Assembly: GCF_009914755.1 (NCBI RefSeq)
Contig: NC_060947.1
Strand: one strand, 5' to 3'
Length of the DNA stretch: 64,000 bases
From: the human T2T-CHM13v2.0 reference genome, Homo sapiens
Numbering within the stretch: the first letter of the stretch is position 1; each line of letters opens with the position of its first letter. The notes beneath the pieces were generated by a model. It was not told the origin of the DNA. It ran no database searches and saw only the letters and a list, made by a program, of their open reading frames with translations. This document shows positions 3,814 through 47,139 of the stretch, one piece after another. The translations under genes were made by a program, and so were the position numbers.

Positions 3814-6454
3814 TGAACATAAAATATTTTTGAAGCCAACATCTAAGCAGGAGTGAGGATTCCTCTTCTTCTTGGTGCCTCTTTTATATCCTACTGTGGG
3901 CATTGTAGCCAGGAGAGTGGTACAAGAAGCTTTGTATTATCAGCTGGGGGACGTTATTATCAGGTTCCATGATTTTGACTTGATATCTTTCCTGGCTTTT
4001 TCATATATGGGGTTGTGAGTATGAGTGAATAGGGACAACTGAGTACAAATCCTAGAGTACAGTGCCATGATAAACATACTGGGCAGGGGGAAATAAGCAG
4101 GCACCAAGGAAAAATAGGAAATAAGACTTTTCCATATAGGTTGATCCCTTTTCTCCAGACGTTCATAGATTCTATATGAGACATCTTATATCCCTTCTTT
4201 TTTTTTTGCCTCCTGCCCTTGTTTCTGCCATACAATTTTATTATGCTTTAGTATTTGTTCATGTAAAGATGAAATTACATTTGTGCCTCAGGCATGCTCT
4301 GCCTGCATAATCACAATAAGAATGTTTTTGGCTAAGGTTTGGAAAACTTAGTTTTTTTGTGTTTTGGTCCCTCTTGTGCCCACCATTTCTAGTGAAGGTT
4401 GTGATTTTTTAACCATTTATTTAACTAAAAATTCTACTAGTGTTGTGGCTAATTTATGCCCCACCTCATCCTCATATTACAATCTTTAAACAAATATCAA
4501 ACTGAGAATATTTCCTTCCCTCACAGAGAAAAAATCTGTTTTTTATTTAGTGTCTGTCTTTTAGTGGAAAGAATGCTGACCTTTTGATACAGGGTACATA
4601 ATCTGACCCTGTTGTTTATTATAATGCTTTATTGCACTGAAGGGGCATATGAACTGGATAAGAAAAGCACATGTACTGCATGAATCAGTTCAGTACTGTT
4701 TCAGGGAAAGAACACATGCAAGGAGATCCATTTAGTTATACTCAGCTCTTAATTTCTGTGATCCTTCTAAACCATGTCTCACAAAAGATATTTCCTGGTG
4801 TTTTTGAAGAGCTGGAGTAATGTATTTACTAGCATAAAATGGCTTCATTAGGTATAGCCATTTTGTTCATCAAAAATCTGCAGCTTTATCACAGGGAATC
4901 ATTCATTGTCAAAGTGCATATGCTAATGACCTTCTTCATAGTCAAAGCACATTTTAAGTATTTATTCATAAGCCAGATGAGGACTTTTAAAGTAGTTAAT
5001 TTTAAAACAAAGTGACCTTTGTACAGGGAGGGAAAAAACATTGAATATGAACAAAATGAGCATTTGTGTCATGGTTTTACACATAATAGAGTATTTGCCA
5101 AGCATCAGCACCAATCATGTATACTTATTCAACCCATGATGCAGCCCTGGTTTTCAAAAGCATAATCAAATATAAACATATATAGATTGACCTCAGTTGA
5201 CATTAAGGGATTGTGGATAGTTTTCTCCTTGTAACAATCATAATTATATTCTATTCTCCTTAGGTAAAGACATGGATGATGTAGATGTTGAACAAGGTGC
5301 TGAAGCAACATGATTATACACATTTCTCATTCCTAGTGGGCTGTTTCAAGGTATAAAAATTAGAAATAGGCACTGATTGAAACATTCAAGTCTCAGTTTT
5401 CTCCTTCTAAACACAGACGAAGACTTGGAGAACAATAAAAACTGTTTACAAAGGGTTTTCTATCCACATGGTCTTATCTCCATATTACTCTGAGTTAATG
5501 TTTGATAGAATGGGGGTATTTGGAGCCAAGAGATCGTCAGTCATTATAGTGAGGACATCAGGTCAGTGTGGTGGGATTGTATTTAAATTTGTATGAGGCC
5601 CTCACTGAGGGCTTTTAACTAGGATAATCTCTCCTGGAGTGATTTCGGCATTTGGTTTTTGGCTATTTCTTTCAGGAATTGTCACAAAGTGAAGAAAGCT
5701 GTAATCTTTCTCTGATTCTTTGTTGGTTAAAAAATTAACCCAGCTAAACTCTTGAATTGATCCAATTCATTGACTTTTCTCCACCTAAATCTAGGCTGGT
5801 TGAAAATGTCTCTCAATGAACAGACTAGGGCTCTGTAACTCTGTGGTCTGCATCCACAGTGGGGTTCTCAGAGCAGGAGGGGAAACCTCTGATGATTCTC
5901 TGATCTGTTCAGCTTTGGTTCTCCACCACAGCCATTTCAAACATTTTCCCACTCTCCACCTCTCTGACTCCAGAACATTCCTGTCACTATCAACATATTG
6001 CTTCCCACTTTAGCAAGAAACTGGATCCATCATTTGAGGGCTCCTTTAACTTCTTGTCATTGAATGAAAGAACACACTTGCATGCCTAGCTATTATTTGC
6101 TTCCCTTATAACAGAGTGGTAATTCTTCCACAGGTTCTTTGACATTTGTTCCTTCTATCTTATTCGCAGACCATGGAATGACATTTTTCTTCTTTCTCCT
6201 TTGCTTTTAATCCCACTCCTTCCAGTGTTTATTGTAACTGCCAAACTGCTTATCTTGTATCTCTTACTCAAATGTAAACCCCATAAGAAGCAGGGAACTG
6301 GTCTATCCTGCTCCCCATTGTATTTCTAGTGCAAAGATCTATGCGTGATTCAATAAATGTTTTTGTTTTTAAATTAATGAATGAGAGCTAAGAGGGTTGT
6401 ATGGTGAGGCAAACTGGTATTATAGAACACAAAGTGTTTTAAAGTTCAATTGCA

Positions 6455-11691: not shown

Positions 11692-11716
11692 GTGCTCGCT
11701 TCGGCAGCACATATAG

Positions 11717-11748
<32 letters not shown>

Positions 11749-11798
11749 GTCCCCTGTGCAAGGATGACATGCAAATTCGTGAAGTGTTCCATATTTTT
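11692..11798 (+). pseudogene. RNU6: Full-length U6 snRNA retro-pseudogene (5' part of a U6/L1 chimera)
   Basis: gtgctcgcttcggcagcacatata...acagagaagattagc...gttccatattttt; 5 substitutions versus recalled U6, 3 of them CpG transitions; upstream DNA is Alu, so no PSE/TATA promoter. Confidence 0.97.
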
Positions 11799-12413
11799 TT
11801 TACACTGTTGGTGGGACTGTAAACTAGTTCAACCATTGTGGAAGACAGTGTGGCGATTCCTCAAGGATCTAGAACTAGAAATACCATTTGACCCTGCCAT
11901 CCCATTACTGGGTATATACCCAAAGGATTATAAATCATGCTGCTATAAAGACACATGCACACGTTTATTGCGGCACTATTCACAATAGCAAAGACTTGGA
12001 ACCAACCCAAATGTCCAACAATGATAGACTGGATTAAGAAAATATGGCACATATACACCATGGAATACTATGCAGCCATAAAAAAGGATGAGTTCATGTC
12101 CTTTGTAAGGACATGGATGAAGCTGGAAACCATCATTCTCAGCAAACTATCGCAAGGACAAAAAACCAAACACCGCATGTTCTGACTCATAGGTGGGAAT
12201 TGAACAGTGAGAACACTTGGACACAGGAAGGGGAACATCACACACTGGGGCCTGTTGTGGTGTGGGGGGAGGGGGGAGGGAAAGCATTAGGAGATATACC
12301 TAATGTAAATGATGAGTTAATGGGTGCAGCACACCAACATGGCACATGTATACATATGTAACAAACCTGCACGTTGTGCACATGTACCCTAGAACTAAAA
12401 GTATAATTAAAAA
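11798..12413 (+). mobile_element. 5'-truncated L1PA (L1PA5-like) 3' end fused to U6
   Basis: ORF2 C-terminal motif ([15 protein letters not shown]...), 3'UTR G-tract, poly-A; TSD AAAAATTAGCCAGGTGT at 11675-11691 and 12414-12430 encloses U6 plus L1. Confidence 0.95.
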
Positions 12414-13534
12414 AAAAATTAGCCAGGTGTGGTGGCACGCATCTGTAATCCCAGCTACTCAGGAGGCTGAGGCAGGAGAATCACTTGAACCCAGGAGGTA
12501 GAGGTTGCAGTGAGCCAAGATCAAGCCACTGGACTCCAGCCTGTGAGAAAGAGTGAGACTCCATCTCAAAAACAAAACAAAACAAAAATCCAGAAGGAAC
12601 AAATAGGGAAGGACATTGTATCAATATAACTTTACAGTACATTCGTGAGCAACAGAAAACCTTACCATATGTGATAGGTTAAATAAGAAATTATTTTTCT
12701 CATACAACAAAAATCCTGAAGAAGGGGCTTAGGGTCGTGTTTTGACTCCACAGTAACATCAATATATCATTCTTCTTCCTCATCCTTTTTGCATGGCTTT
12801 TATTTTTGTTGTTGCAATATAGCTGCTGAACAAGGGCATCATCCCGTATGAGTTCCAGGCAGAAAGGAGGAGGAAAGGATCAAAAGCTTTCTCTTAATGA
12901 AGTGTTACTTTGGGAGGGCAGTTTTCCATTAAATCTCCCCTTAACCTCTTTGGACAAAAGTGTATCACATTGCATCTCTTGTTGCAAAGAAGACCAGAAC
13001 TTCAAAGCTTTAATATTCTAGCCACTATAATAGAGGGAGGCCCAGGAAGAGGGGTTTGATGTTGGAGTTAAGTGAGCCAATGATTAGTGTCTATCATATA
13101 AGTGAGACCAACAGGAGCTGACATGTTGCAAAAAATAAAGGAACCAAGGATAGAAACTAAATAAATTTGAAAATCAGATGTGATGAGACATGCGAGGAGG
13201 CTAACAGATGTTGGAGATTATAATTTCTGGTGTGAAGCAATTTAGGCAAGAAGAAATGGTTGTTGAAGAGTCATAGGGTTTAAGTTTCTTGGAATTCAGA
13301 AGGTCAAGAAAACATCAAACTAGAAAGGATCTTCCATATGGATATTGACATTTCTTAAGATGATAGAGGGACTTGCGGTTTTAGTAAAGTAAAAAGTTAG
13401 TCTATAATAAACCATATCCTCTTCTGAAGATTACATCAGAATGAAAACATGTCCTGTTGCACATTCTTAAACCCCAAAAGAAATTAGAATGACTTAAATC
13501 GGGCAGCAGTTCCCAGAGAAAGTTAATATTCACT

Positions 13535-30063: not shown

Positions 30064-30575
<512 letters not shown>

Positions 30576-31518
30576 TTATTGCAAAAATTGTGGGCATCTA
30601 GGAGAACTGGAGTTGTGAGCAGGTCAGAAGAGAAACTTTGCTGCTTCCTTTGTCAATGCTGTATGGAGAGAAATTTGAGATGCTTTGGATATTAAAAGAA
30701 AGACTGGAAGGCAGAAGATACTGAATTAACCACACCAATGAAGAGCGGTAAGCAGACCATGCGAGTAGCAAGACTATTTCTGCAGAGTTCATAACAGGAG
30801 CTGTAAGTGACCCAGAGAATACTCACTGTGGAAAGTTGAGATATCATTAGGCTCTATGAGACTTCAGGTTGTAGCATTTTACTTGTTGCAAATTATGTAG
30901 TGGAATTATACTTCTTTATCATAAAAATCTCTTGCGTCGTGGTGTGGCCAGGGCTCTTTCATATATGGGAGTTGGTATCAGTCTACTAAACAGTCCAGTG
31001 GAGACAGCTCTTTTTGTTTCCTATTGAAGTCTCATACTAAAAAATAAAAGCTGACTATTTTACTACAAATATCATTAATCCTAAAGATAGTTTTAGATGG
31101 TACACAGGTTTTAATGTTTTTACAATAAGGTCATATGAAGCCAAAATAACTCCTGGATGTGGGATGGGCTTGAGTGGGGGGGATAATCATACAAAGAGTT
31201 TTTATTAGATACATTGAAAAGCAAAGTAAAATTTACCTAATAATAGCCCACCCAGTGGAAAATAATTGCTTTAACTTCTCTTGGATATTTTAATCTCAAT
31301 TCTGACAAAATGAAGGCCTCTTGGCAATTTAACAGTTCTTTGGCTTTTAGCTGAAAGAAAATAAAAAAAAAAAGGAAGTGCCACTAATGCTTGAGATAAA
31401 TACTAAGTCTTACAGGACTGGAGTTAAGTTGTTTTCCAAACAGATAAAAACATATCACAATTATGCTTCATTTAGGTTTTATTCCCTGCATTATTTTATC
31501 TTCATTGTGTCATACTAA

Positions 31519-38478: not shown

Positions 38479-38790
38479 GAATGTTATAATTACTGCAGAG
38501 AAAAATAGAGCACAGAGGGAGGAAGTAGAAGTGTATATGTGTATGCATGTGTGTAGAGGAGGGGCTGTTGAAATTTTAAATAACTTTGTCAGGGAAGGCC
38601 TTGTTGAGAAGATACATTTGAACAAACATTTGAAGGAGATTTAAGTAATTCATGTGGTTATTTAAGAGAAGAACATGGTAGGCAAAAGGAATGGCAAGTG
38701 GAAATTTCCTGAGCCATAGCATGTCTGGCTCTTTTTGAAGGAAAGCAAAGAAGTCAGAGTGCTGGAGCACTATAAAAGATGAGGGCAGAG

Positions 38791-39937: not shown

Positions 39938-40771
39938 CTGCCTGAACTCAGGGGGCCATAGAATTCATACTTTGTTCTAGTTGCCAAATTTCAGGAGCTG
40001 ACTTGCTTCTTGTCCTTGTCAAGGTTCGATGGTTGAACTTGTTTTTTGAGTCTGTGGAACCCTCCTGAATCATTAAAATGAATTTGTTCCAGCACTCAAT
40101 CTTTTTTTCTTAAATAAAGCAAAGTTAATTTCTGTTGCTTGCAAATAAAAACGCTTAACTAATATAATTATCTTGTGATTTCTCTCTAGTTCTTTAATAT
40201 AGTCCTTTTCTTCTGAAATAGATTATTAGTTTCTTAGAGACAGGAATAATTCTTTCCATTTATTTTATATCCTTCCTCTATGCAGCTATACTTATAGGAC
40301 AAGATAATAACAGCTAGGCATTCATTCAATGATTATAATGTGTCAAGCACTGTGCTAAGTACTTATGTAGATTATCTTATTTAAACTTCATGAGAATTCT
40401 GTGAATAATTACTCTGATTATTTCTCTTTTTTATAGATGAGGAATCAGAAACCAGAGATGGGACATGGCTAATAAATAGTGGAGTGGAGACTCAATCCTG
40501 GGCAATCTCACCTAAGAGCCCACATTCTTTCAGGACCCAGCACTTAGTAGGTACTTAAAAATACTTGTGTATCGATATATTGAAAAGTACTAAGTATCCA
40601 CAAAATCACATTCATTAAAACTTTGGTTTGCAGTAAGAATACTTGAGACAACGTAGAATTTTGAATAAGAATCTTATAACATACCAAGGAAGAAAATATA
40701 AGAAGTATTATTTGTAGAAAAATTCAATTATTCCCAGTAATAAAGAAAAAGCATTAATCTATTATACATCA

Positions 40772-40960: not shown

Positions 40961-42085
40961 TACATAAATCTTTGATATTTCTTCTAACAGCCCTAAAAGA
41001 TAAGGTAGGTATTATCATGCTCACTTAACTGATTAGGAAACTTAGGCTCAGAAATTTAAGTGCTTTGTTCCAATCTGTTAACACCCAACCCTAAAGGTGC
41101 TAGATTCAGTGAGCTGAAAATGCTCACTGAAAACGCAAAATGCAAAATGCCTAATCCTTAGAACCAGACACTCCAGTCACCATTTATTTGTCCATGTCTG
41201 AGTTCACAACACATCCTCTCTCCCTATTTCATTTGCCATTTAATTATGTGCTGCCCCATGACACTGGTGTGCTACTTCATAATTATGATCGTGTTATTTT
41301 AGTGCCATGCAGCTTCATTGTAATTTTACTTGTGAGACCTTTTTTTAATATATTGGGTACCTATAAGAATGAAATATTTCCATAACAAAACAGATTTACA
41401 GTCAGCTTGTAATGGTTTAATGCCAAGATGTTATAGAACTATCTACCAATGAAGAAAGGGTTGAATTGAATCAGATAATGATTATATGGGCTTTTCAAAT
41501 TTAAAAAAAACAAGCAACACTTCAGAGAGAATTTATATAATTTGCAAATATAGGTAAATATGTAAGCAAATCTTCATTATATCATATTCAGTATTTGTTC
41601 TCTTAAGCATAAGAGTTGTGCTTGTCCGTATAGAATAGGCTGAATGAAACTGAAACAAGTCTTGCTTTCTATAAGTTAATATTTGGGGATTGGTCACACA
41701 CAAAGACACACACACACACACACACACACAATGGTGAGGGAGGGGCTTACCTCTTTTATTTACTGTCCCATTCATAATGCCTAGAACAGTGCCTGGTGCA
41801 CAGTAGGCAAATATGCACTCAAATATTTCCTTAGTGCCTACCACAGGCCAGATAGTGTTCTAGGCATTGGGGATACAGCATTGAATAAAACAGAATTCAT
41901 ACTTTCATAGTTTATATTCTACAAATGGGAGACAGAAAATAAAGACATAAATGAATATGATATTTAGTATGTCAGATAGTGATAAGGACAATTGGAAAAA
42001 TTAAGCAGGAATAAGGGATAAGGTGGGAGAGTTGCCATTCAAAATAAAGTAGTAAAAGAAGACCTCAGTAATACATGACTTTTGA

Positions 42086-42450
42086 AGGAGGCAGTCAGGA
42101 AACATTTCACCAGAAGATGACAATTAAACTGAGTCTTGAAAAACAACTAGGAGTTTTCCAGGAAGACAAGAAGGGAGAAATATATAGAAGATGAATAATT
42201 CACTTTGAATTCTAATTTGCATCTCCTTTTACATGTAGTGGCATCATTTTTAAGGCAGATGGTGTATAACTTTGCTCCAGAGTTAAGAATTCTCTTTCCT
42301 GAAAGCTCCAGGGATAATTCTGATTGGTTCTGCTTGGATCATGTGTCCATCTCTGAAACAATTACCATGGCCAGGCAGGTAGTGTATTCTTATTGGCTGG
42401 CCTGGGTCATGTGCCCACTCCTGGGATTTTGTTTTTTTGTGTGTGGAGGG
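42086..42450 (-). repeat. Inverted duplicate (arm A) of 44249-44508 plus 45308-45436 (arm B); composite of MLT1 and L2 sequence
   Basis: Hand alignment of the reverse complement gives about 90% identity across the MLT1/L2 junction. Confidence 0.92.
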
Positions 42451-42881
42451 GGCTTCAGAGCCCCTACTCTGTGTAATCTTCCCCAGGAGATCATCAGTTA
42501 GGGGAGGCAAAGAAAGTAACTTTTCTCTTTTTGATCTATCAGGGTTTGCAAGTTCCTTTGAAAGAAGAGAATTACAGAAGTATTGAGACTGGAAGGAGCA
42601 CTTAGTGCAGGACCACAGGATGACTGACTCCTCAGCACAGCTTAGCATCCTGGTGCCAAAGTGGGTGCTTCACAAAGATTTATTGTATAAATAGAGAGGA
42701 CTATCACAAACCACATGTTGACTGAATGACTCCACCATTGTCTAACCACTGATTTTGAGGGGATCCCTTGGGACTATCCCATAGATCCAAGTTCACCTTA
42801 CCTTGGGAGCAGATGGAACCAGACCCCAGGTGCTCTGCCATGAATCTCCCTCAGGTGATCCGGGCATCCCAAAGATCTTAC

Positions 42882-43053
42882 CTCATAGAAGCTGTTGTAG
42901 AAGCAATTGCAGGAAGAGGCATTGATGCAGCGTTGTCATTAAGCAAAAAGCCAGGACTGCTGACACTACCCTGCCAGCAGACAAGCCTGCAGCTGGGCCT
43001 GAGGCTCTCACAGGATGCAAGGCAAGCACAGGATTCATATGAGGGACAACTAT
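42882..43053 (-). pseudogene. ZAN: Orphan decayed exon homologous to the zonadhesin D0 TIL-domain exon
   Basis: Acceptor ttttgtgttttccggttAG and donor GAG|gtaaga; translates SCPSYESCACLASCESLRPSCRLVCWQGSVSSPGFLLNDN[-1 frameshift]CINASSCNCFYNSFYE versus recalled ZAN SCPPNARYESCACPASCKSPRPSCGPLCREGCVCNPGFLFSDNHCIQASSCNCFYNNDYYE. Confidence 0.85.
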
Positions 43054-43164
43054 CTAACCGGAAAACACAAAACCTCCATTAAGCCTTCGCTCTGCAGCTT
43101 TTCTCAGAGATCCTTCCTGTCTCTCCTCTACACTCCCAAACTGAAGTTCTTCTCTAAGAAGTAG

Positions 43165-43315
43165 GCCCATATTATTCAATCATAAGAAGGAATGAAGTTC
43201 TGATGCATGCTACAACATGGATGACCTTGAAAACATTATGCTCAGTGAAAGAAGCCACACACAAAGGCCCACATATTTTATAATTCCATTTGTGTAAAAT
43301 GTCTAGAATAGGCAA
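43165..43315 (+). mobile_element. L1MB 3' fragment
   Basis: aggaatgaagttctgatgcatgctacaacatggatgaccttgaaaacattatgctcagtgaaagaagcc. Confidence 0.8.
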
Positions 43316-44508
43316 CAAATGAAAGAGTTGAGTATTGTGTAAGGGAAGTTTGAGATTCCTATTGCCATTCAGGTGAGGATGTTGAGCAGGTTGCTCAACA
43401 GGTTGCTTGATAAGTGTCTGGAGTTCAGGAGAAATAACCAGTCCAGAGGCATAAATTTGGGAGTCATTAGCAAATAATTGGAATTTTAAAGCATGAGACT
43501 AGATTAGACTACATGGGCCTGATAAATATTTGATAGGTAATAAACAAATATACACAATATCTTCTGCTATAACACATTATCTATAACAAATAGTATATAT
43601 GTAATAGGAAATAGGGGAAGAATGTCAATACCATGTGGACGTTGGGTTGAAGTAGAATTTTAACCTTCAGCATGAAAGGAAAAATCCCTCAATTTGGCTG
43701 CTGCAGTGTCAAAAGCCCTTTTAGCTTTATTTATGTTTTAAAATTAAAAGTGAGGTTCTACACCCAGGGCTTCCTCTCCAAGGAAGTAGACCCTCAGCCT
43801 TGCATGATTCTTGCCTCAGGCAGAGTGTACTTCTTCCTGTGCGCACCTTAATAGCAGCCTTTCTGTCTTAGACTTCCACTTCCATCTGCATTGTCTCAGC
43901 TCTCTCAAGTAGAATTTCCTCTCTATTGGTTTCTTGCATGTTTAATATCTACTGAGGTGGCCTCTAGCCATAACAAGCTGTGTGTCTGAGCTGTGCACAA
44001 GTCATCACCTGATATATTATTTTAAAAAAATTGTTAATGCTCTGCTTATAAAGGTACATAAGTTTTGAGTGATCTGCCTTAACTCTTATGCCTTGTTAGT
44101 TTTAGTGTGTGATTTTGAAAAATGAGAGATTTTTCAGCCGAGTATGTCATTTTATGTCAGAAATGCTTGTATACATATAATTGACATGCTACTTTTGTTC
44201 ACATCTTTCCTGGCAGGAACTGAAAGGTATTTATATTTATGTTTCTCTCCCTCCGCCAAAATAAAACAAAACAAAACAAAGAACAAAAACCCAGGAATGG
44301 GCACATGACCCAGGCCAGCCAATCAGAATATACTACCTACCTGGCCATGGTAATTGTTTCAGGGATGGACACATGATCCAAGTAGAACCAAGAATTGTCC
44401 CTGGAGTTATCAGGAAAGAGAACTCTTTTAACTCTGGAACAATGTTACACACCATCTGCCTTAATAATGATGCCATTACAAGGGAAAGGAGACTCAAATT
44501 AAAATTCA

Positions 44509-45307
44509 TTTATGCAGCCAAAAAACACACGAAAAAATGCTCACCATCACTGGCCATCAGAGAAATGCAAATCAAAACCACAATGATACACCATCTCACA
44601 TCAGTTAGAATGGCAATCATTAAAAAGTCAGGAAACAACAGGTGCTGGAGAGGATGTGGAGAAATAGGAACACTTTTACACTGTTGGTGGGACTGGAAAC
44701 TAGTTCAACCATTGTGGAAGTCAGTGTGGCGATTCCTCAGGGATCTAGAACTAGAAATACCATTCGACCCCGCCATCCCATTACTGGGTATATACCCAAA
44801 GGATTATAAATCATGCTGCTATAAAGACACATGCACATGTATGTTTATTGCGGCACTATTCACAATAGCAAAGACTTGGAACCAACCCAAATGTCCAACA
44901 ATGATAGACTGGATTAAGAAAATGTGGCACATATACACCATGGAATACTATGCAGCCATAAAAAATGATGAGTTCATGTCCTTTGTAGGGACATGGATGA
45001 AGCTGGAAACCATCATTCTCAGCAAACTATTGCAAGGGCAAAAAACCAAACACTGCATGTTCTCACTCATAGGTGGGAATTGAACAATGAGAACACATGG
45101 ACACAGGAAGGGGAACATCACACACTGGGGCCTGTTGTGGGGTGGGGGGAGGGGGGAGGGATAGCATTAGGAGATATACCTAATGTTAAATGACGAGTTA
45201 ATGGGTGCAGCACACCAACATGGCACATGTATACATATGTAACAAACCTGCACGTTGTGCACATGTACCCTAAAACTTAAAGTATAATAAAAAATAAATA
45301 AAAATAA
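44509..45307 (+). mobile_element. 5'-truncated L1PA (L1PA4-like) with an uninterrupted ORF2 C-terminal frame
   Basis: IYAAKKH...HCWWD...SLIGGN*, 3'UTR, poly-A; TSD TAAAATTCA at 44500-44508 and 45308-45316. Confidence 0.95.
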
Positions 45308-47139
45308 TAAAATTCAAAGTAAATTACTCATCTTGTATATATTTCTCCCTTCTTGTCTTCCTGGAAAACTCCTAATTGTTTTTCAAGACTCAGTTCAATT
45401 GCCGTCTTCTGGTAAAATGTTTCCTGACCACCTCCTGCCTCCTCCATGAAGTACTGTGAGCTTCCTTCTTATTCCCACAGCACCTTTGTACACATTTCTC
45501 TTACAGCATTGTTATGTAACTTTGCTTTATTATCTGCTCTTCCCCTTCCCCCACCCCTCAGTCTGTGGCATTCTTGATGGTAGTCACATTACCTTATCCA
45601 TTTCTATAAACCTAGGACCTAACACAATGTCTAGTATGCATTAGGTGCACAGTAAATGTGAGTTGAATGAATTAATGAAGATATGGCTCTGGTAATATAT
45701 GGCTGATTGCTTTGCGCAAGAAGACACATTGTCTTGGAGGCACACACGCACACACACACACACTCACTCTCTGGGGAATGTAAGATTTTTGATAGGTAAG
45801 AATTTTGATCCAATCTTAAAACAAACAAAAAAGAGGTGTGTGTGGGGTGGTCCGGGGGGGGGGGTGATATTTCCTGCAAGGTAGGGTTCGAGGAAAGGCA
45901 CTTCATTAAAATTAAACTTGAAAATAGGGCATTGGGAGAGAATGCAGAGTGGGGGGGACTTTAGAAAAAGAGAACAAATAAAATTGGAAATGAAACACTG
46001 CCTTATAAAATTAGAAAATAGAGGTAGAAAAACTGAAGGCTGGTATTATTCAGGGAAGTAGGTATAGACAAGCAAGAAAAGTAAAGGTAAAGAAATGGAA
46101 AAAGATGGAAAGTAGAGGTGGGAGCCAGAGACAGGGGGAGGAAGGTCCTGGATAGTAGACTTCTGAGCTTTCAATAAAGCTTTATTTTCCACTATGTGTT
46201 AGGCCATGTGCTGGGTTATTAGTACATTGAAATGAGTAACTTATATTCCCTACGCATCCAATTATGGGGGAGATCTCAGTTTATAATGGTATAAGAAAGC
46301 AATGGGATGACAACAAAGGGCGAGTGTTAGGGGATATTGCCCACTTTTTGAAATTGGACCCCCATCCTTTACCAGAGTTGTAAGAAGTCTGACAGCTGAA
46401 ATGCTGTCCTCAAGTTGAGAAAATGGCCCACCCCTTCCCTATTCTTGTTTCTTTCTCTCTGAACTCTATAATCCCTCACCCTTGCCAGGGCTAAAGGAAC
46501 TCTTTTTATACATTTTCTTCCTTCCAGTTTTGATATGGTGAAGGCAGGACTGAGGGCTCATCACCCCTACCCCTCCTCCTAGCAGAACAAGTTGACCTTT
46601 ACCAGAACACACCAGGTCATGAGTCAGAATTCCCATGCCATGTTTGCTGAAGCTATTAACTCTTCTAAGTCCTGGCACCCCAGGACATCTTGACCGTCCC
46701 AACGAAGCACTGCCACCAAAACCAGTTTGGGTGGAGCCTTGGCTTTTCTTACTCCATGTCAAATTAGGAAGGTGACCCCTGGCACCAGGGTCCCATCATT
46801 CCCCACAGTACTTTTCCAAGACCCAGGGGGGATATGAGAGAGGAGAGACTTGCAGCCTCCTCCACAAGGAAGGGGGCTCCTAGGAGATGAGATGGGAGTA
46901 ACTTGTGCCTTGGCTGTGGTGAGCAGTAGGGGTACTCCTGGTGTAGGTACAAACTGTGGGAGGTTTGGGCATAGCCATATCCACCTTGCAGGTGGATGTG
47001 TCAGATGGGCCATGGTGTGTGTGTGTGGGGGGGGCGTGGGGGGTGACAGTTCCTGCAAGGTAGGGTCCGAGGAAAGGAAAGACCTATGGAAAAGGATACA
47101 CCTGGGATCTTGAGGAGCCAGCTGCACCTGTTTCTGGGC

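What the first reader, a model, noticed from the sequence alone, without database searches (positions are those of the whole stretch)
42086..45436. Complex insertion: an inverted copy of nearby DNA plus the ZAN-bearing fragment, dropped into an L2
Seen: 42086-42450 is the reverse complement (about 90% by hand alignment) of 44249-44508 plus 45308-45436. The match crosses an MLT1/L2 junction, so it is a duplication rather than two independent repeat copies. Arm B continues into its own L2 tail (to ~45670). Arm A plus 42451-43315 instead interrupts a different L2 (41845-42085 / 43320-43510). Inference: arm B was the donor, and one repair event with serial template switching (MMBIR/FoSTeS-like) copied local DNA in reverse and then ZAN-derived DNA. 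The arms could still promote inversion of the 1.8-kb spacer or form dsRNA if transcribed.
Basis: partly seen in the sequence, partly recalled or inferred. Interest (0 to 1): 0.75.

Follow-up and report, generated by a model that had tools for sequence, protein, structure and literature searches.

The report
Ancient repair scar in SYTL5 intron
In an intron of human SYTL5, a 365-base stretch copied backwards from DNA 2-3 kb away sits beside a 600-base scrap of the chromosome-7 sperm gene ZAN; it is a real but ordinary fossil of old DNA repair with no sign of function.

Summary
Arm A (42086-42450) is the reverse complement of 44249-44508 plus 45317-45436: 90.1% identity over 362 columns. These are the only two copies in the genome.

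- **Later insertion.** A young L1 3' fragment with a 9-nt target-site duplication split arm B. Arm A keeps the empty site.
- **ZAN piece.** 42718-43316 matches chr7 at 75-79%. It carries a decayed TIL pseudo-exon and an L1 fragment shared with chr7. The chr7 locus has MAM exons upstream of an intact TIL exon.
- **Unplaced DNA.** 267 nt (42451-42717) between arm A and the ZAN piece have no source that I could find.
- **L2 flanks.** The two L2 pieces share strand and order, but about 617 bp of L2 is missing between them. This is a replacement, not a clean insertion.
- **Donor.** Arm B is the donor. Its L2 runs on into its own tail. The arm A junction shows a 6-nt identity plus 18/31 imperfect matches.
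- **One event?** Not refuted. The X-side branch of the ZAN piece (0.059) equals the per-arm divergence (0.054). It is also not proven.

The arms now seem too diverged to drive inversion; a double-stranded RNA in the pre-mRNA is thermodynamically possible. Low interest.

The parts
41819..42085 (-). Left L2 3' piece (L2a), positions 14-314 of my L2 tail profile; it ends exactly at the arm A junction
   Evidence: nhmmer with a profile built from 20 independent genomic L2 copies: E 2e-44, alignment stops at 42085; independent copies align up to 42067-42097
42086..42450 (.). Arm A: inverted copy of arm B. It has an L2-derived part (about 42086-42175) and an LTR-like core (42303-42427; the MLT1/MaLR label is recalled, not tested)
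   Evidence: 90.1% over 362 columns; only arm B matches it in the genome; L2 nature of its left part (1/1000 shuffles)
42086..42091 (.). AGGAGG shared by the left L2 end and the donor: 6-nt microhomology at the entry junction. The 31 nt to its left match the donor flank 18/31 on the same diagonal
   Evidence: 0.1% of 50,504 control window pairs reach 18/31
42451..42717 (.). Orphan segment of 267 nt between arm A and the ZAN piece; no source found
   Evidence: no other genomic match (all 7 candidates scored); no significant match to 4.3 kb of chr7 upstream sequence or to the window
42624..42697 (+). L2/MIR-type 3' tail inside the orphan segment
   Evidence: local alignment to L2 profile consensus positions 3-73, 0 of 500 shuffles as good
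42718..43316 (-). ZAN-derived piece: intron, TIL exon, then intron with an old L1 fragment, copied from chr7
   Evidence: 42718-43197 vs chr7:101995700-101995216 at 74.6% over 493 columns; 43187-43316 vs chr7:101994287-101994132 region at 79.5%
42882..43053 (-). Decayed TIL-domain pseudo-exon; bounds read by eye from AG/GT. Against chr7 it has 9-nt and 3-nt deletions and a 1-nt frameshift, and two cysteines are lost
   Evidence: Pfam TIL E 4e-5, 24.0 bits, just under the 24.5 cut-off; alignment; translations
43165..43316 (+). Old L1 internal fragment that belongs to the ZAN piece and is shared with chr7
   Evidence: 80-87% to 38 other L1 copies; 5 derived sites shared with the chr7 copy
43320..43510 (-). 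Right L2 piece, from about 930-1100 nt upstream of the L2 3' end. It lacks its own 3' side
   Evidence: 7 independent L2 copies match 43322-43522; in the contiguous copy L058 it lies about 617 nt beyond the part that matches 41848-42067, on the same strand
43511..44248 (.). Rest of the spacer between the arms; holds fragments of other old repeats
   Evidence: partial matches at 67-86% to 7 loci
44249..44508 (.). Arm B, left part (donor)
44509..45307 (+). Young L1 3' fragment with an A-rich tail, inserted into arm B after the duplication. The target-site duplication TAAAATTCA lies at 44500-44508 and 45308-45316
   Evidence: 95.7% to 11798-12417; target-site duplication and empty site in arm A
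45317..45436 (.). Arm B, right part (donor), L2-derived
45437..45670 (+). L2 3' tail continuing from arm B (L2b)
   Evidence: profile 127-214 at 45545-45461 (3/500 shuffles); profile 7-78 at 45670-45599 (E 9e-5)

Best explanation
This is a fixed scar of one complex break repair in an ancestral primate germline.

Proposed steps:
1. An old L2 element on the minus strand was broken and lost about 617 bp.
2. Its left end (now 42085/42091) paired imperfectly with a second, oppositely oriented L2 about 3.3 kb downstream, at a nearby but not identical L2 position.
3. That end primed DNA synthesis on a 6-nt identity and copied 365 nt of that region backwards. This made arm A.
4. The new strand then left the template. 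The gap was closed with 267 nt of unknown source and a 599-nt piece of the ZAN gene from chromosome 7 (DNA or unspliced RNA as template). That piece was joined to the right L2 stump at 43320.
5. Later a young L1 fragment landed in the donor arm.

Shown here: the duplication, the donor direction, the homeology and microhomology at the entry junction, the chr7 origin of the ZAN piece, the missing L2 segment, and the equal X-side ages within wide limits.

Inferred: that all pieces arrived in one event, and the enzymology (template-switching replication repair or synthesis-dependent gap repair with patch insertion).

No present function is indicated. The arms lie in one SYTL5 intron and could pair as RNA.
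For: - **Sole pair.** The arms are the only pair in the genome, at 90.1%.
- **Donor is arm B.** Its L2 is collinear into its own tail. The left L2 ends at profile position 314. Arm A restarts at about 275-296, so about 20-40 L2 positions occur twice at the junction.
- **Entry junction.** AGGAGG is shared, and the 31 nt before it match the donor flank 18/31. Only 0.1% of 50,504 control window pairs do as well, and matching falls to 5/31 in the next block, with 7-13/31 in the six blocks beyond. The exit side shows none (6/31).
- **ZAN piece.** chr7 match at 75-79% across intron, exon, intron and a shared L1 fragment. The chr7 exon is an intact TIL (5e-10), with MAM exons 4-18 kb upstream on the same strand.
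- **No leftover L2.** No L2 sequence remains between the two L2 stumps, although about 617 bp should be there.
- **Ages agree on the X side.** X branch of the ZAN piece 0.059 [0.018-0.106] vs per-arm 0.054 [0.037-0.074].
- **No retrotransposition marks.** No target-site duplication or poly(A) at the ends of the block (sequence).
Against: - The age match rests on 130 sites and 19 polarised differences (6 on X, 13 on chr7), so the interval is wide.
- Raw divergence of the ZAN piece from chr7 (K2P 0.268 [0.212-0.328]) is 2.5 times that of the arms (0.108).
- The 267-nt orphan segment separates arm A from the detectable ZAN piece and has no source. It could be older local DNA, which would make two separate insertions.
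- That the two L2 stumps are one element rests only on shared strand and order.
- Arm B's L2 part alone is not significant against the profile (102/1000).
- Microhomology at the other junctions cannot be judged without the donors' ancestral sequence.
- A switch to another chromosome is unusual for replication-based template switching (my knowledge, not tested here).
- No other primate genome could be examined.
Confidence: 0.5

Rival explanations
1. Stepwise origin. The ZAN piece, with or without the orphan segment, was patched into the L2 first as an ordinary templated insertion. A later, separate break at its left edge was repaired by copying arm B in reverse. The L2 loss happened in one of these events or in a third.
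For: The raw divergence of the ZAN piece from chr7 (0.268) exceeds that of the arms (0.108). The orphan segment lies between arm A and the ZAN piece. Single patches from distant transcribed regions are a described class (PMC5110952: abstract and sections 5 and 9 read).
Against: It needs two or three independent events that abut exactly, with no L2 remnant between them. The X-side branch of the ZAN piece equals the per-arm divergence. The chr7 copy carries about twice the private changes (13 vs 6), which explains the raw excess.
Confidence: 0.33
2. Inversion with a duplicated breakpoint. Staggered breaks around the ancestor of arm B, plus a break in the left L2, inverted the 1.8-kb spacer and left the breakpoint sequence at both ends in opposite orientation.
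For: Inverted duplicates flanking a short segment are the predicted product of this mechanism (known from Drosophila inversions; recalled, not read here). The ZAN piece would then simply be older resident DNA.
Against: The model predicts repeat continuity across 42450/42451 and L2 continuing in the reverse complement of 44248 leftwards. Neither was found. The flank of arm A vs three independent LTR copies gave z -0.5 to -0.9. The reverse complement of 44100-44249 vs the L2 profile had 397/500 shuffles as good, and nhmmer found nothing collinear. The right L2 piece is collinear with the left L2 in the present orientation. The homeology at the entry junction is not expected under this model. All of these tests have low power on such old repeats.
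Confidence: 0.07
3. Arm A is the original and arm B is the copy.
For: L2 copies are often 5'-truncated. The left L2 could therefore end naturally at 42085, which would make that junction ancestral.
Against: Arm B's L2 part continues collinearly into its own L2 tail. Arm A's L2 part overlaps the left L2 in L2 coordinates, so the two cannot be one element. The flank homeology ends in a 6-nt identity at arm A's left edge.
Confidence: 0.04
4. Two independent insertions of the same repeat families that only look like a duplication.
For: Both arms are built from repeat-derived sequence.
Against: Identity is 90% across two different repeat pieces in one collinear alignment. Independent copies reach 63-84%. 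Nothing else in the genome has the composite.
Confidence: 0.01

Closest known systems
Complex rearrangements by serial template switching (FoSTeS/MMBIR). The founding papers are recalled and were not read. Related papers were seen only as listing abstracts (PMC11293582, PMC4352052, PMC7954356)
   Same: Several templated segments lie in cis, one of them a nearby segment in reverse orientation. There is a short identity at the entry junction, and recipient sequence was lost.
   Different: One template is on another chromosome and one is unidentified. The event is old and fixed, so a single-generation origin cannot be shown. The segments are far smaller than the disease-associated cases.
Class 2 templated sequence insertions, i.e. 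break repair with a patch from a distant transcribed region (Onozawa and Aplan, PMC5110952; abstract and sections 5 and 9 read)
   Same: The donor locus is intact and the extra copy lies elsewhere. The donor lies inside a gene. There is no target-site duplication, no poly(A) tract and no polyadenylation signal at the ends. Recipient sequence was lost.
   Different: Here the patch is joined to a local inverted copy and to an orphan segment. Whether RNA was the template is unknown: intron and exon are both present, which fits DNA or unspliced RNA.
Fold-back inverted duplications (PMC3907307, listing abstract only)
   Same: A nearby sequence is copied in reverse orientation with a spacer between the copies.
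   Different: Those are large terminal duplications that involve dicentric intermediates. This one is a 365-nt interstitial copy primed from a different, diverged L2.
Inverted repeats that drive recurrent inversion by non-allelic homologous recombination
   Same: Two arms in opposite orientation flank a short spacer.
   Different: The arms are 90% identical, the longest identical run is 39 nt, and one arm is split by 799 nt of L1.

Membership tests
Local inverted segmental duplication | One collinear alignment across pieces of different repeat families | tested here: met
   The L2-derived part and the LTR-like core lie in one alignment
Local inverted segmental duplication | Identity clearly above that of independent family copies, and only two copies in the genome | tested here: met
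   90.1% vs 63-84%; each arm finds only the other
Serial template switching (FoSTeS/MMBIR-type) rearrangement | Two or more templated segments from different places joined in cis | tested here: met
   Arm A derives from arm B and the ZAN piece from chr7; the third segment has no known source
Serial template switching (FoSTeS/MMBIR-type) rearrangement | Microhomology at the junctions | tested here: inconclusive
   The entry junction has 6 nt plus 18/31 flanking homeology. The other three junctions cannot be judged without ancestral donor and recipient sequence
Serial template switching (FoSTeS/MMBIR-type) rearrangement | All junctions formed in a single event | not testable with these tools
   Needs orthologous loci of other primates. 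The indirect age test is compatible but wide
Class 2 templated sequence insertion | Donor intact and an extra copy at a distant site | tested here: met
   The chr7 exon is open and a full TIL match; the X copy is decayed
Class 2 templated sequence insertion | No target-site duplication, poly(A) tract or polyadenylation signal; end-joining features instead | tested here: met
   The ends of the block and of the ZAN piece show none, and about 617 bp of recipient L2 is lost
Class 2 templated sequence insertion | RNA-derived template | not testable with these tools
   The piece holds intron and exon, which fits DNA or unspliced RNA
L1-mediated insertion (class 1 templated insertion, retrocopy) | Target-site duplication, poly(A) tail, loss of introns for a retrocopy | tested here: not met
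   None at 42718 or 43316; intron sequence is kept on both sides of the exon
Zonadhesin (ZAN) as source gene | MAM domains together with von Willebrand D/TIL-type modules in one gene (architecture as stated in the abstract of PMC1325057, listing only) | tested here: met
   MAM exons at chr7:101976862-101977119 and 101990751-101991026 lie upstream of the TIL exon on the same strand. The gene name and 7q22 position are recalled. No ZAN protein sequence was available for comparison (searched only up to 2000 aa and found nothing)
Recombination-competent inverted repeat | Long tract of uninterrupted identity | tested here: not met
   The longest run is 39 nt, within the 20-50 expected for evenly spread mismatches. 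The length threshold itself is recalled

The most novel reading that the evidence does not exclude
The ZAN piece was copied from unspliced ZAN RNA in male germ cells, where this sperm gene is transcribed. It served as a patch in the same repair event in which the broken L2 end primed on an inverted L2 nearby. If so, this would be a dated natural case, tens of millions of years old, in which RNA-templated patching and homeology-primed inverted copying acted on one germline break.
Probability: 0.12. Interest if true: 0.45.

Novelty: new member of a known kind. Interest (0 to 1): 0.22.

Why it matters
The value is modest.
- It is a well-resolved fossil with four features in one scar: a local inverted copy, flanking homeology at its entry junction, a gene fragment from another chromosome, and loss of recipient sequence. 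It could serve as a worked example of how such composite scars look after long decay.
- For annotation, the TIL-like reading frame on the X is a dead scrap of ZAN and not a gene. It lies antisense to SYTL5.
- The two arms sit in one intron of the SYTL5 transcripts that use the exons at 30501-30747 or 40437-40550 (the hub's gene table). They could form an imperfect RNA duplex. That is the only conceivable present-day effect, and it is untested.

Tried and rejected
- **Naive clock.** The arms at 0.108 and the ZAN piece vs chr7 at 0.268 first suggested two events of different age. The three-taxon test on the shared L1 fragment showed the excess lies on the chr7 branch, so I dropped that conclusion.
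- **LTR continuity at arm A's right edge.** I asked whether the LTR-like repeat continues past 42450, which would favour the inversion model. Three independent copies gave no signal for either arm's flank (z -0.1 to -1.1).
- **L2 continuity at arm B's left edge.** I asked whether the left L2 continues in the reverse complement of 44248 leftwards. It does not.
- **Source of the orphan segment.** No hit in the window or the genome. Against chr7 upstream sequence the scores were 15 vs shuffles 12.8 +/- 1.6 and 12 vs 11.9.
- **Protein searches for the pseudo-exon.** The large protein database gave no hit among proteins of 117-2000 aa. I recall ZAN as longer than that, so the search is uninformative. 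Solved structures gave only E 0.2 to a TIL protein.
- **Single-sequence nhmmer and pairwise blastn.** They could not see the L2 nature of the arms. A profile consensus restricted to the expected region could.
- **Literature.** A search for zonadhesin/ZAN with SYTL5/Xp11.4 found 217 papers with at least two terms. None of the 10 listed combines ZAN with SYTL5 or Xp11.4. This does not show that the locus is undescribed.
- **Gene conversion between the arms.** Mismatches are evenly spread, so there is no sign of recent conversion. Old conversion cannot be excluded.


Full report
**Observation**

The repeat finder reports four collinear inverted pairs between 42055-42444 and 44271-45467. blastn gives 91.5% over 129 ungapped columns (42086-42214 vs 45436-45308) and 88.0% over 234 columns (42206-42437 vs 44508-44278). 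A gapped alignment of 42086-42450 against the reverse complement of 44249-44508 plus 45317-45436 has 362 columns, 36 mismatches, three gap blocks and 90.1% identity. K2P distance is 0.108 [0.073-0.148]. Identity falls to background within a few bases outside both ends.

**What splits arm B**

44509-45307 is a young L1 3' fragment with an A-rich tail, 95.7% identical to another copy at 11798-12417. It is flanked by TAAAATTCA on both sides. Arm A has this site once, uninterrupted. The L1 therefore landed in arm B after the duplication.

**Duplication, not family likeness**

The window's own assembly could be searched.
- Arm A plus its right flank (42195-42720) finds itself, arm B at 88%, and five other loci at 73-84% over at most 117 nt. 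All seven candidates were scored.
- The left L2 plus arm A's left part (41735-42205) finds itself, arm B at 92%, and 38 L2 copies at 69-94% that all lie left of 42033. In pairwise blastn these copies are 63-83% identical.
- Arm B's right part with its flank (45308-45700) finds only itself and arm A.

The composite therefore exists exactly twice.

**Repeat content of the arms**

I built a profile from 20 independent genomic L2 3' ends.
- The left L2 is positions 14-314 of this profile at 41819-42085 (E 2e-44). The alignment stops exactly at 42085.
- Arm A's left part aligns to consensus positions 296-384, with 1 of 1000 shuffles as good.
- Arm B's corresponding part aligns to 275-327 but is not significant alone (102 of 1000). 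Three control segments gave 476-547 of 1000.
- Pairwise comparisons with four long L2 copies place both arms in the same L2 region, with 1/300 to 169/300 shuffles as good.
- The core 42303-42427 matches the five independent copies of an LTR-like repeat. I recall this as a MaLR (MLT1-type) LTR; no tool here names repeat families.

The exact boundary, somewhere in 42200-42303, is not fixed.

**Donor direction**

Arm B's right flank is collinear L2. Profile 127-214 lies at 45545-45461 (3 of 500 shuffles) and profile 7-78 at 45670-45599. With the arm at about 275-384, this makes one L2 on the plus strand. At arm A, the left L2 ends at profile 314 and the arm restarts at about 275-296, so 20-40 L2 positions occur twice. 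The left junction of arm A is a true breakpoint and arm B is the original.

**The entry junction**

AGGAGG (42086-42091) is shared by both arms. The L2 consensus has AGGAAG shortly after the point where the left L2 stops. It can therefore be read as 6-nt microhomology.

The 31 nt to its left (42055-42085) match arm B's flank 18/31 on the same ungapped diagonal. Only 0.1% of 50,504 control window pairs between the two L2 regions reach 18, and the maximum is 19. The next blocks outward give 5, 13, 7, 13, 12, 11 and 10 of 31. The other end of the arms shows nothing (6/31).

I read this as a broken end of the left L2 pairing imperfectly with the inverted L2 about 3.3 kb away. It then primed on the terminal identity and copied leftwards through arm B. 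This is an inference from the sequence pattern.

**The ZAN piece**

- 42459-43319 finds chr7:101995216-101995700 at 75%.
- In detail, 42718-43197 matches at 74.6% over 493 columns. 43187-43316 matches at 79.5%, about 930 bp further on in chr7.
- The extra chr7 DNA there, and the DNA just left of the homology, are Alu-like insertions (my label; sequences).
- On the window's minus strand lies a TIL-like pseudo-exon: Pfam TIL E 4e-5, 24.0 bits against a cut-off of 24.5. Against chr7 it has 9-nt and 3-nt deletions and a 1-nt frameshift, and two cysteines are lost.
- The chr7 exon is open and a full TIL domain (5e-10, 39.8 bits).
- MAM-domain exons lie 4 and 18 kb upstream on the same strand. MAM plus von Willebrand D-type modules is the zonadhesin architecture, as stated in the abstract of PMC1325057 (seen only in the listing). 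The gene's name and its 7q22 position are recalled.
- Intron sequence on both sides of the exon rules out a processed retrocopy.
- The old L1 fragment 43165-43316 belongs to the piece. It starts at the same point in chr7 and shares 5 derived sites with the chr7 copy against the majority of 25 other copies. In chr7 the L1 runs on where the X copy stops at 43316.

**The orphan segment**

42451-42717 (267 nt) matches nothing else in the genome or the window. It also does not match 4.3 kb of chr7 sequence upstream of the homology. Its right part (42624-42697) is an L2/MIR-type 3' tail on the plus strand (0 of 500 shuffles). It may be a third template, a part of the ZAN intron since lost from chr7, or older local DNA.

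**"Dropped into an L2"**

43322-43508 matches seven independent L2 copies. In L058, a contiguous L2, the part matching 41848-42067 and the part matching 43333-43508 lie on the same strand, in the same order, about 617 nt apart. The right piece lacks its own 3' side, which L2 copies normally keep (my knowledge), so the left L2 is its natural partner. The 1,234-bp block (42086-43319) stands where about 617 bp of L2 should be. No L2 remnant was detected inside it.

**One event or several**

Raw distances differ: arms 0.108, ZAN piece vs chr7 0.268 [0.212-0.328], or 0.249 without CpG columns. The L1 fragment allows the difference to be split, using the majority of 25 other L1 copies as outgroup over 130 sites.
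- X branch since the split: 0.059 [0.018-0.106].
- chr7 branch: 0.127 [0.065-0.208].
- Shared stem: 0.049.
- Private changes: 6 on X, 13 on chr7.

Per-arm divergence, also on the X at this locus, is 0.054 [0.037-0.074]. The ages agree, with wide limits. A single event also explains why three foreign pieces abut exactly in one L2 gap. Against it stand the unexplained orphan segment and the wide interval. I give one event about 0.5 and stepwise origin about 0.33.

**Rival models**

Inversion with a duplicated breakpoint predicts repeat continuity across 42450/42451 and L2 continuing leftwards from 44248. Neither was found, though these tests are weak on such old repeats. Arm A as the original is contradicted by the L2 coordinates. 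Independent repeat copies are excluded.

**Present-day consequences**

Mismatches between the arms are evenly spread. The longest identical run is 39 nt, where 20-50 is expected for random placement. There is therefore no sign of recent gene conversion and little substrate for recombination-driven inversion.

As RNA on the SYTL5 sense strand the arms would pair strongly. Cofold energies are -370 and -181 kcal/mol, against -130 and -45 with shuffled partners. By the hub's gene table both arms lie in one intron of the transcripts that use the exons at 30501-30747 or 40437-40550. No exon lies between the arms. Whether such a duplex forms or matters is untested.

**Comparison with known kinds**

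The closest described kinds are complex rearrangements by serial template switching and class 2 templated sequence insertions (PMC5110952; abstract and sections 5 and 9 read).

The ZAN piece meets the class 2 features that I could test: the donor is intact, there is no target-site duplication or poly(A), and recipient sequence is lost. Features of L1-mediated insertion are absent.

The locus is a new example of known kinds of repair scar. I found no print record of it in one search, which proves little.

**Age**

From 0.054-0.059 substitutions per site per X copy, and primate rates that I recall (about 0.9 to 2.2 per billion years), the event is roughly 25-65 million years old. This is an inference and is best tested on other primate genomes, which these tools do not hold.

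Noticed in passing
41693-41737 and 45733-45777: Two (CA)n microsatellites in direct orientation bracket the whole structure (family D1). They are direct rather than inverted, so they are not part of a larger palindrome.
   Followed up: partly
41737-41808 and 41819-41894: Two L2/MIR-type 3' tails lie head to head just left of the finding. 41751-41894 matches its own reverse complement, and the L2 profile hits 41808-41737 on the minus strand.
   Followed up: no
L064 (chr7:101990000-101999999), around chr7:101995700 and 101994290-101995216: In the ZAN intron the left edge of homology with the X copy coincides with the poly(A) end of an Alu-like insertion. A further insertion of about 930 bp splits the shared L1 fragment. 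The chr7 copy also carries about twice as many private changes as the X copy.
   Followed up: partly
11798-12417: A second young L1 3' fragment, 95.7% identical to the one inside arm B. It lies next to the annotated RNU6-49P pseudogene at 11692-11797.
   Followed up: no
43654-43970 and 44031-44137: The spacer holds fragments of other old repeat families, with 7 genomic matches at 67-86%. They are not identified.
   Followed up: no
38482-38670, 2128-2204, 2866-2974, 6252-6364: Further L2-type fragments in the window were found with the L2 tail profile.
   Followed up: no
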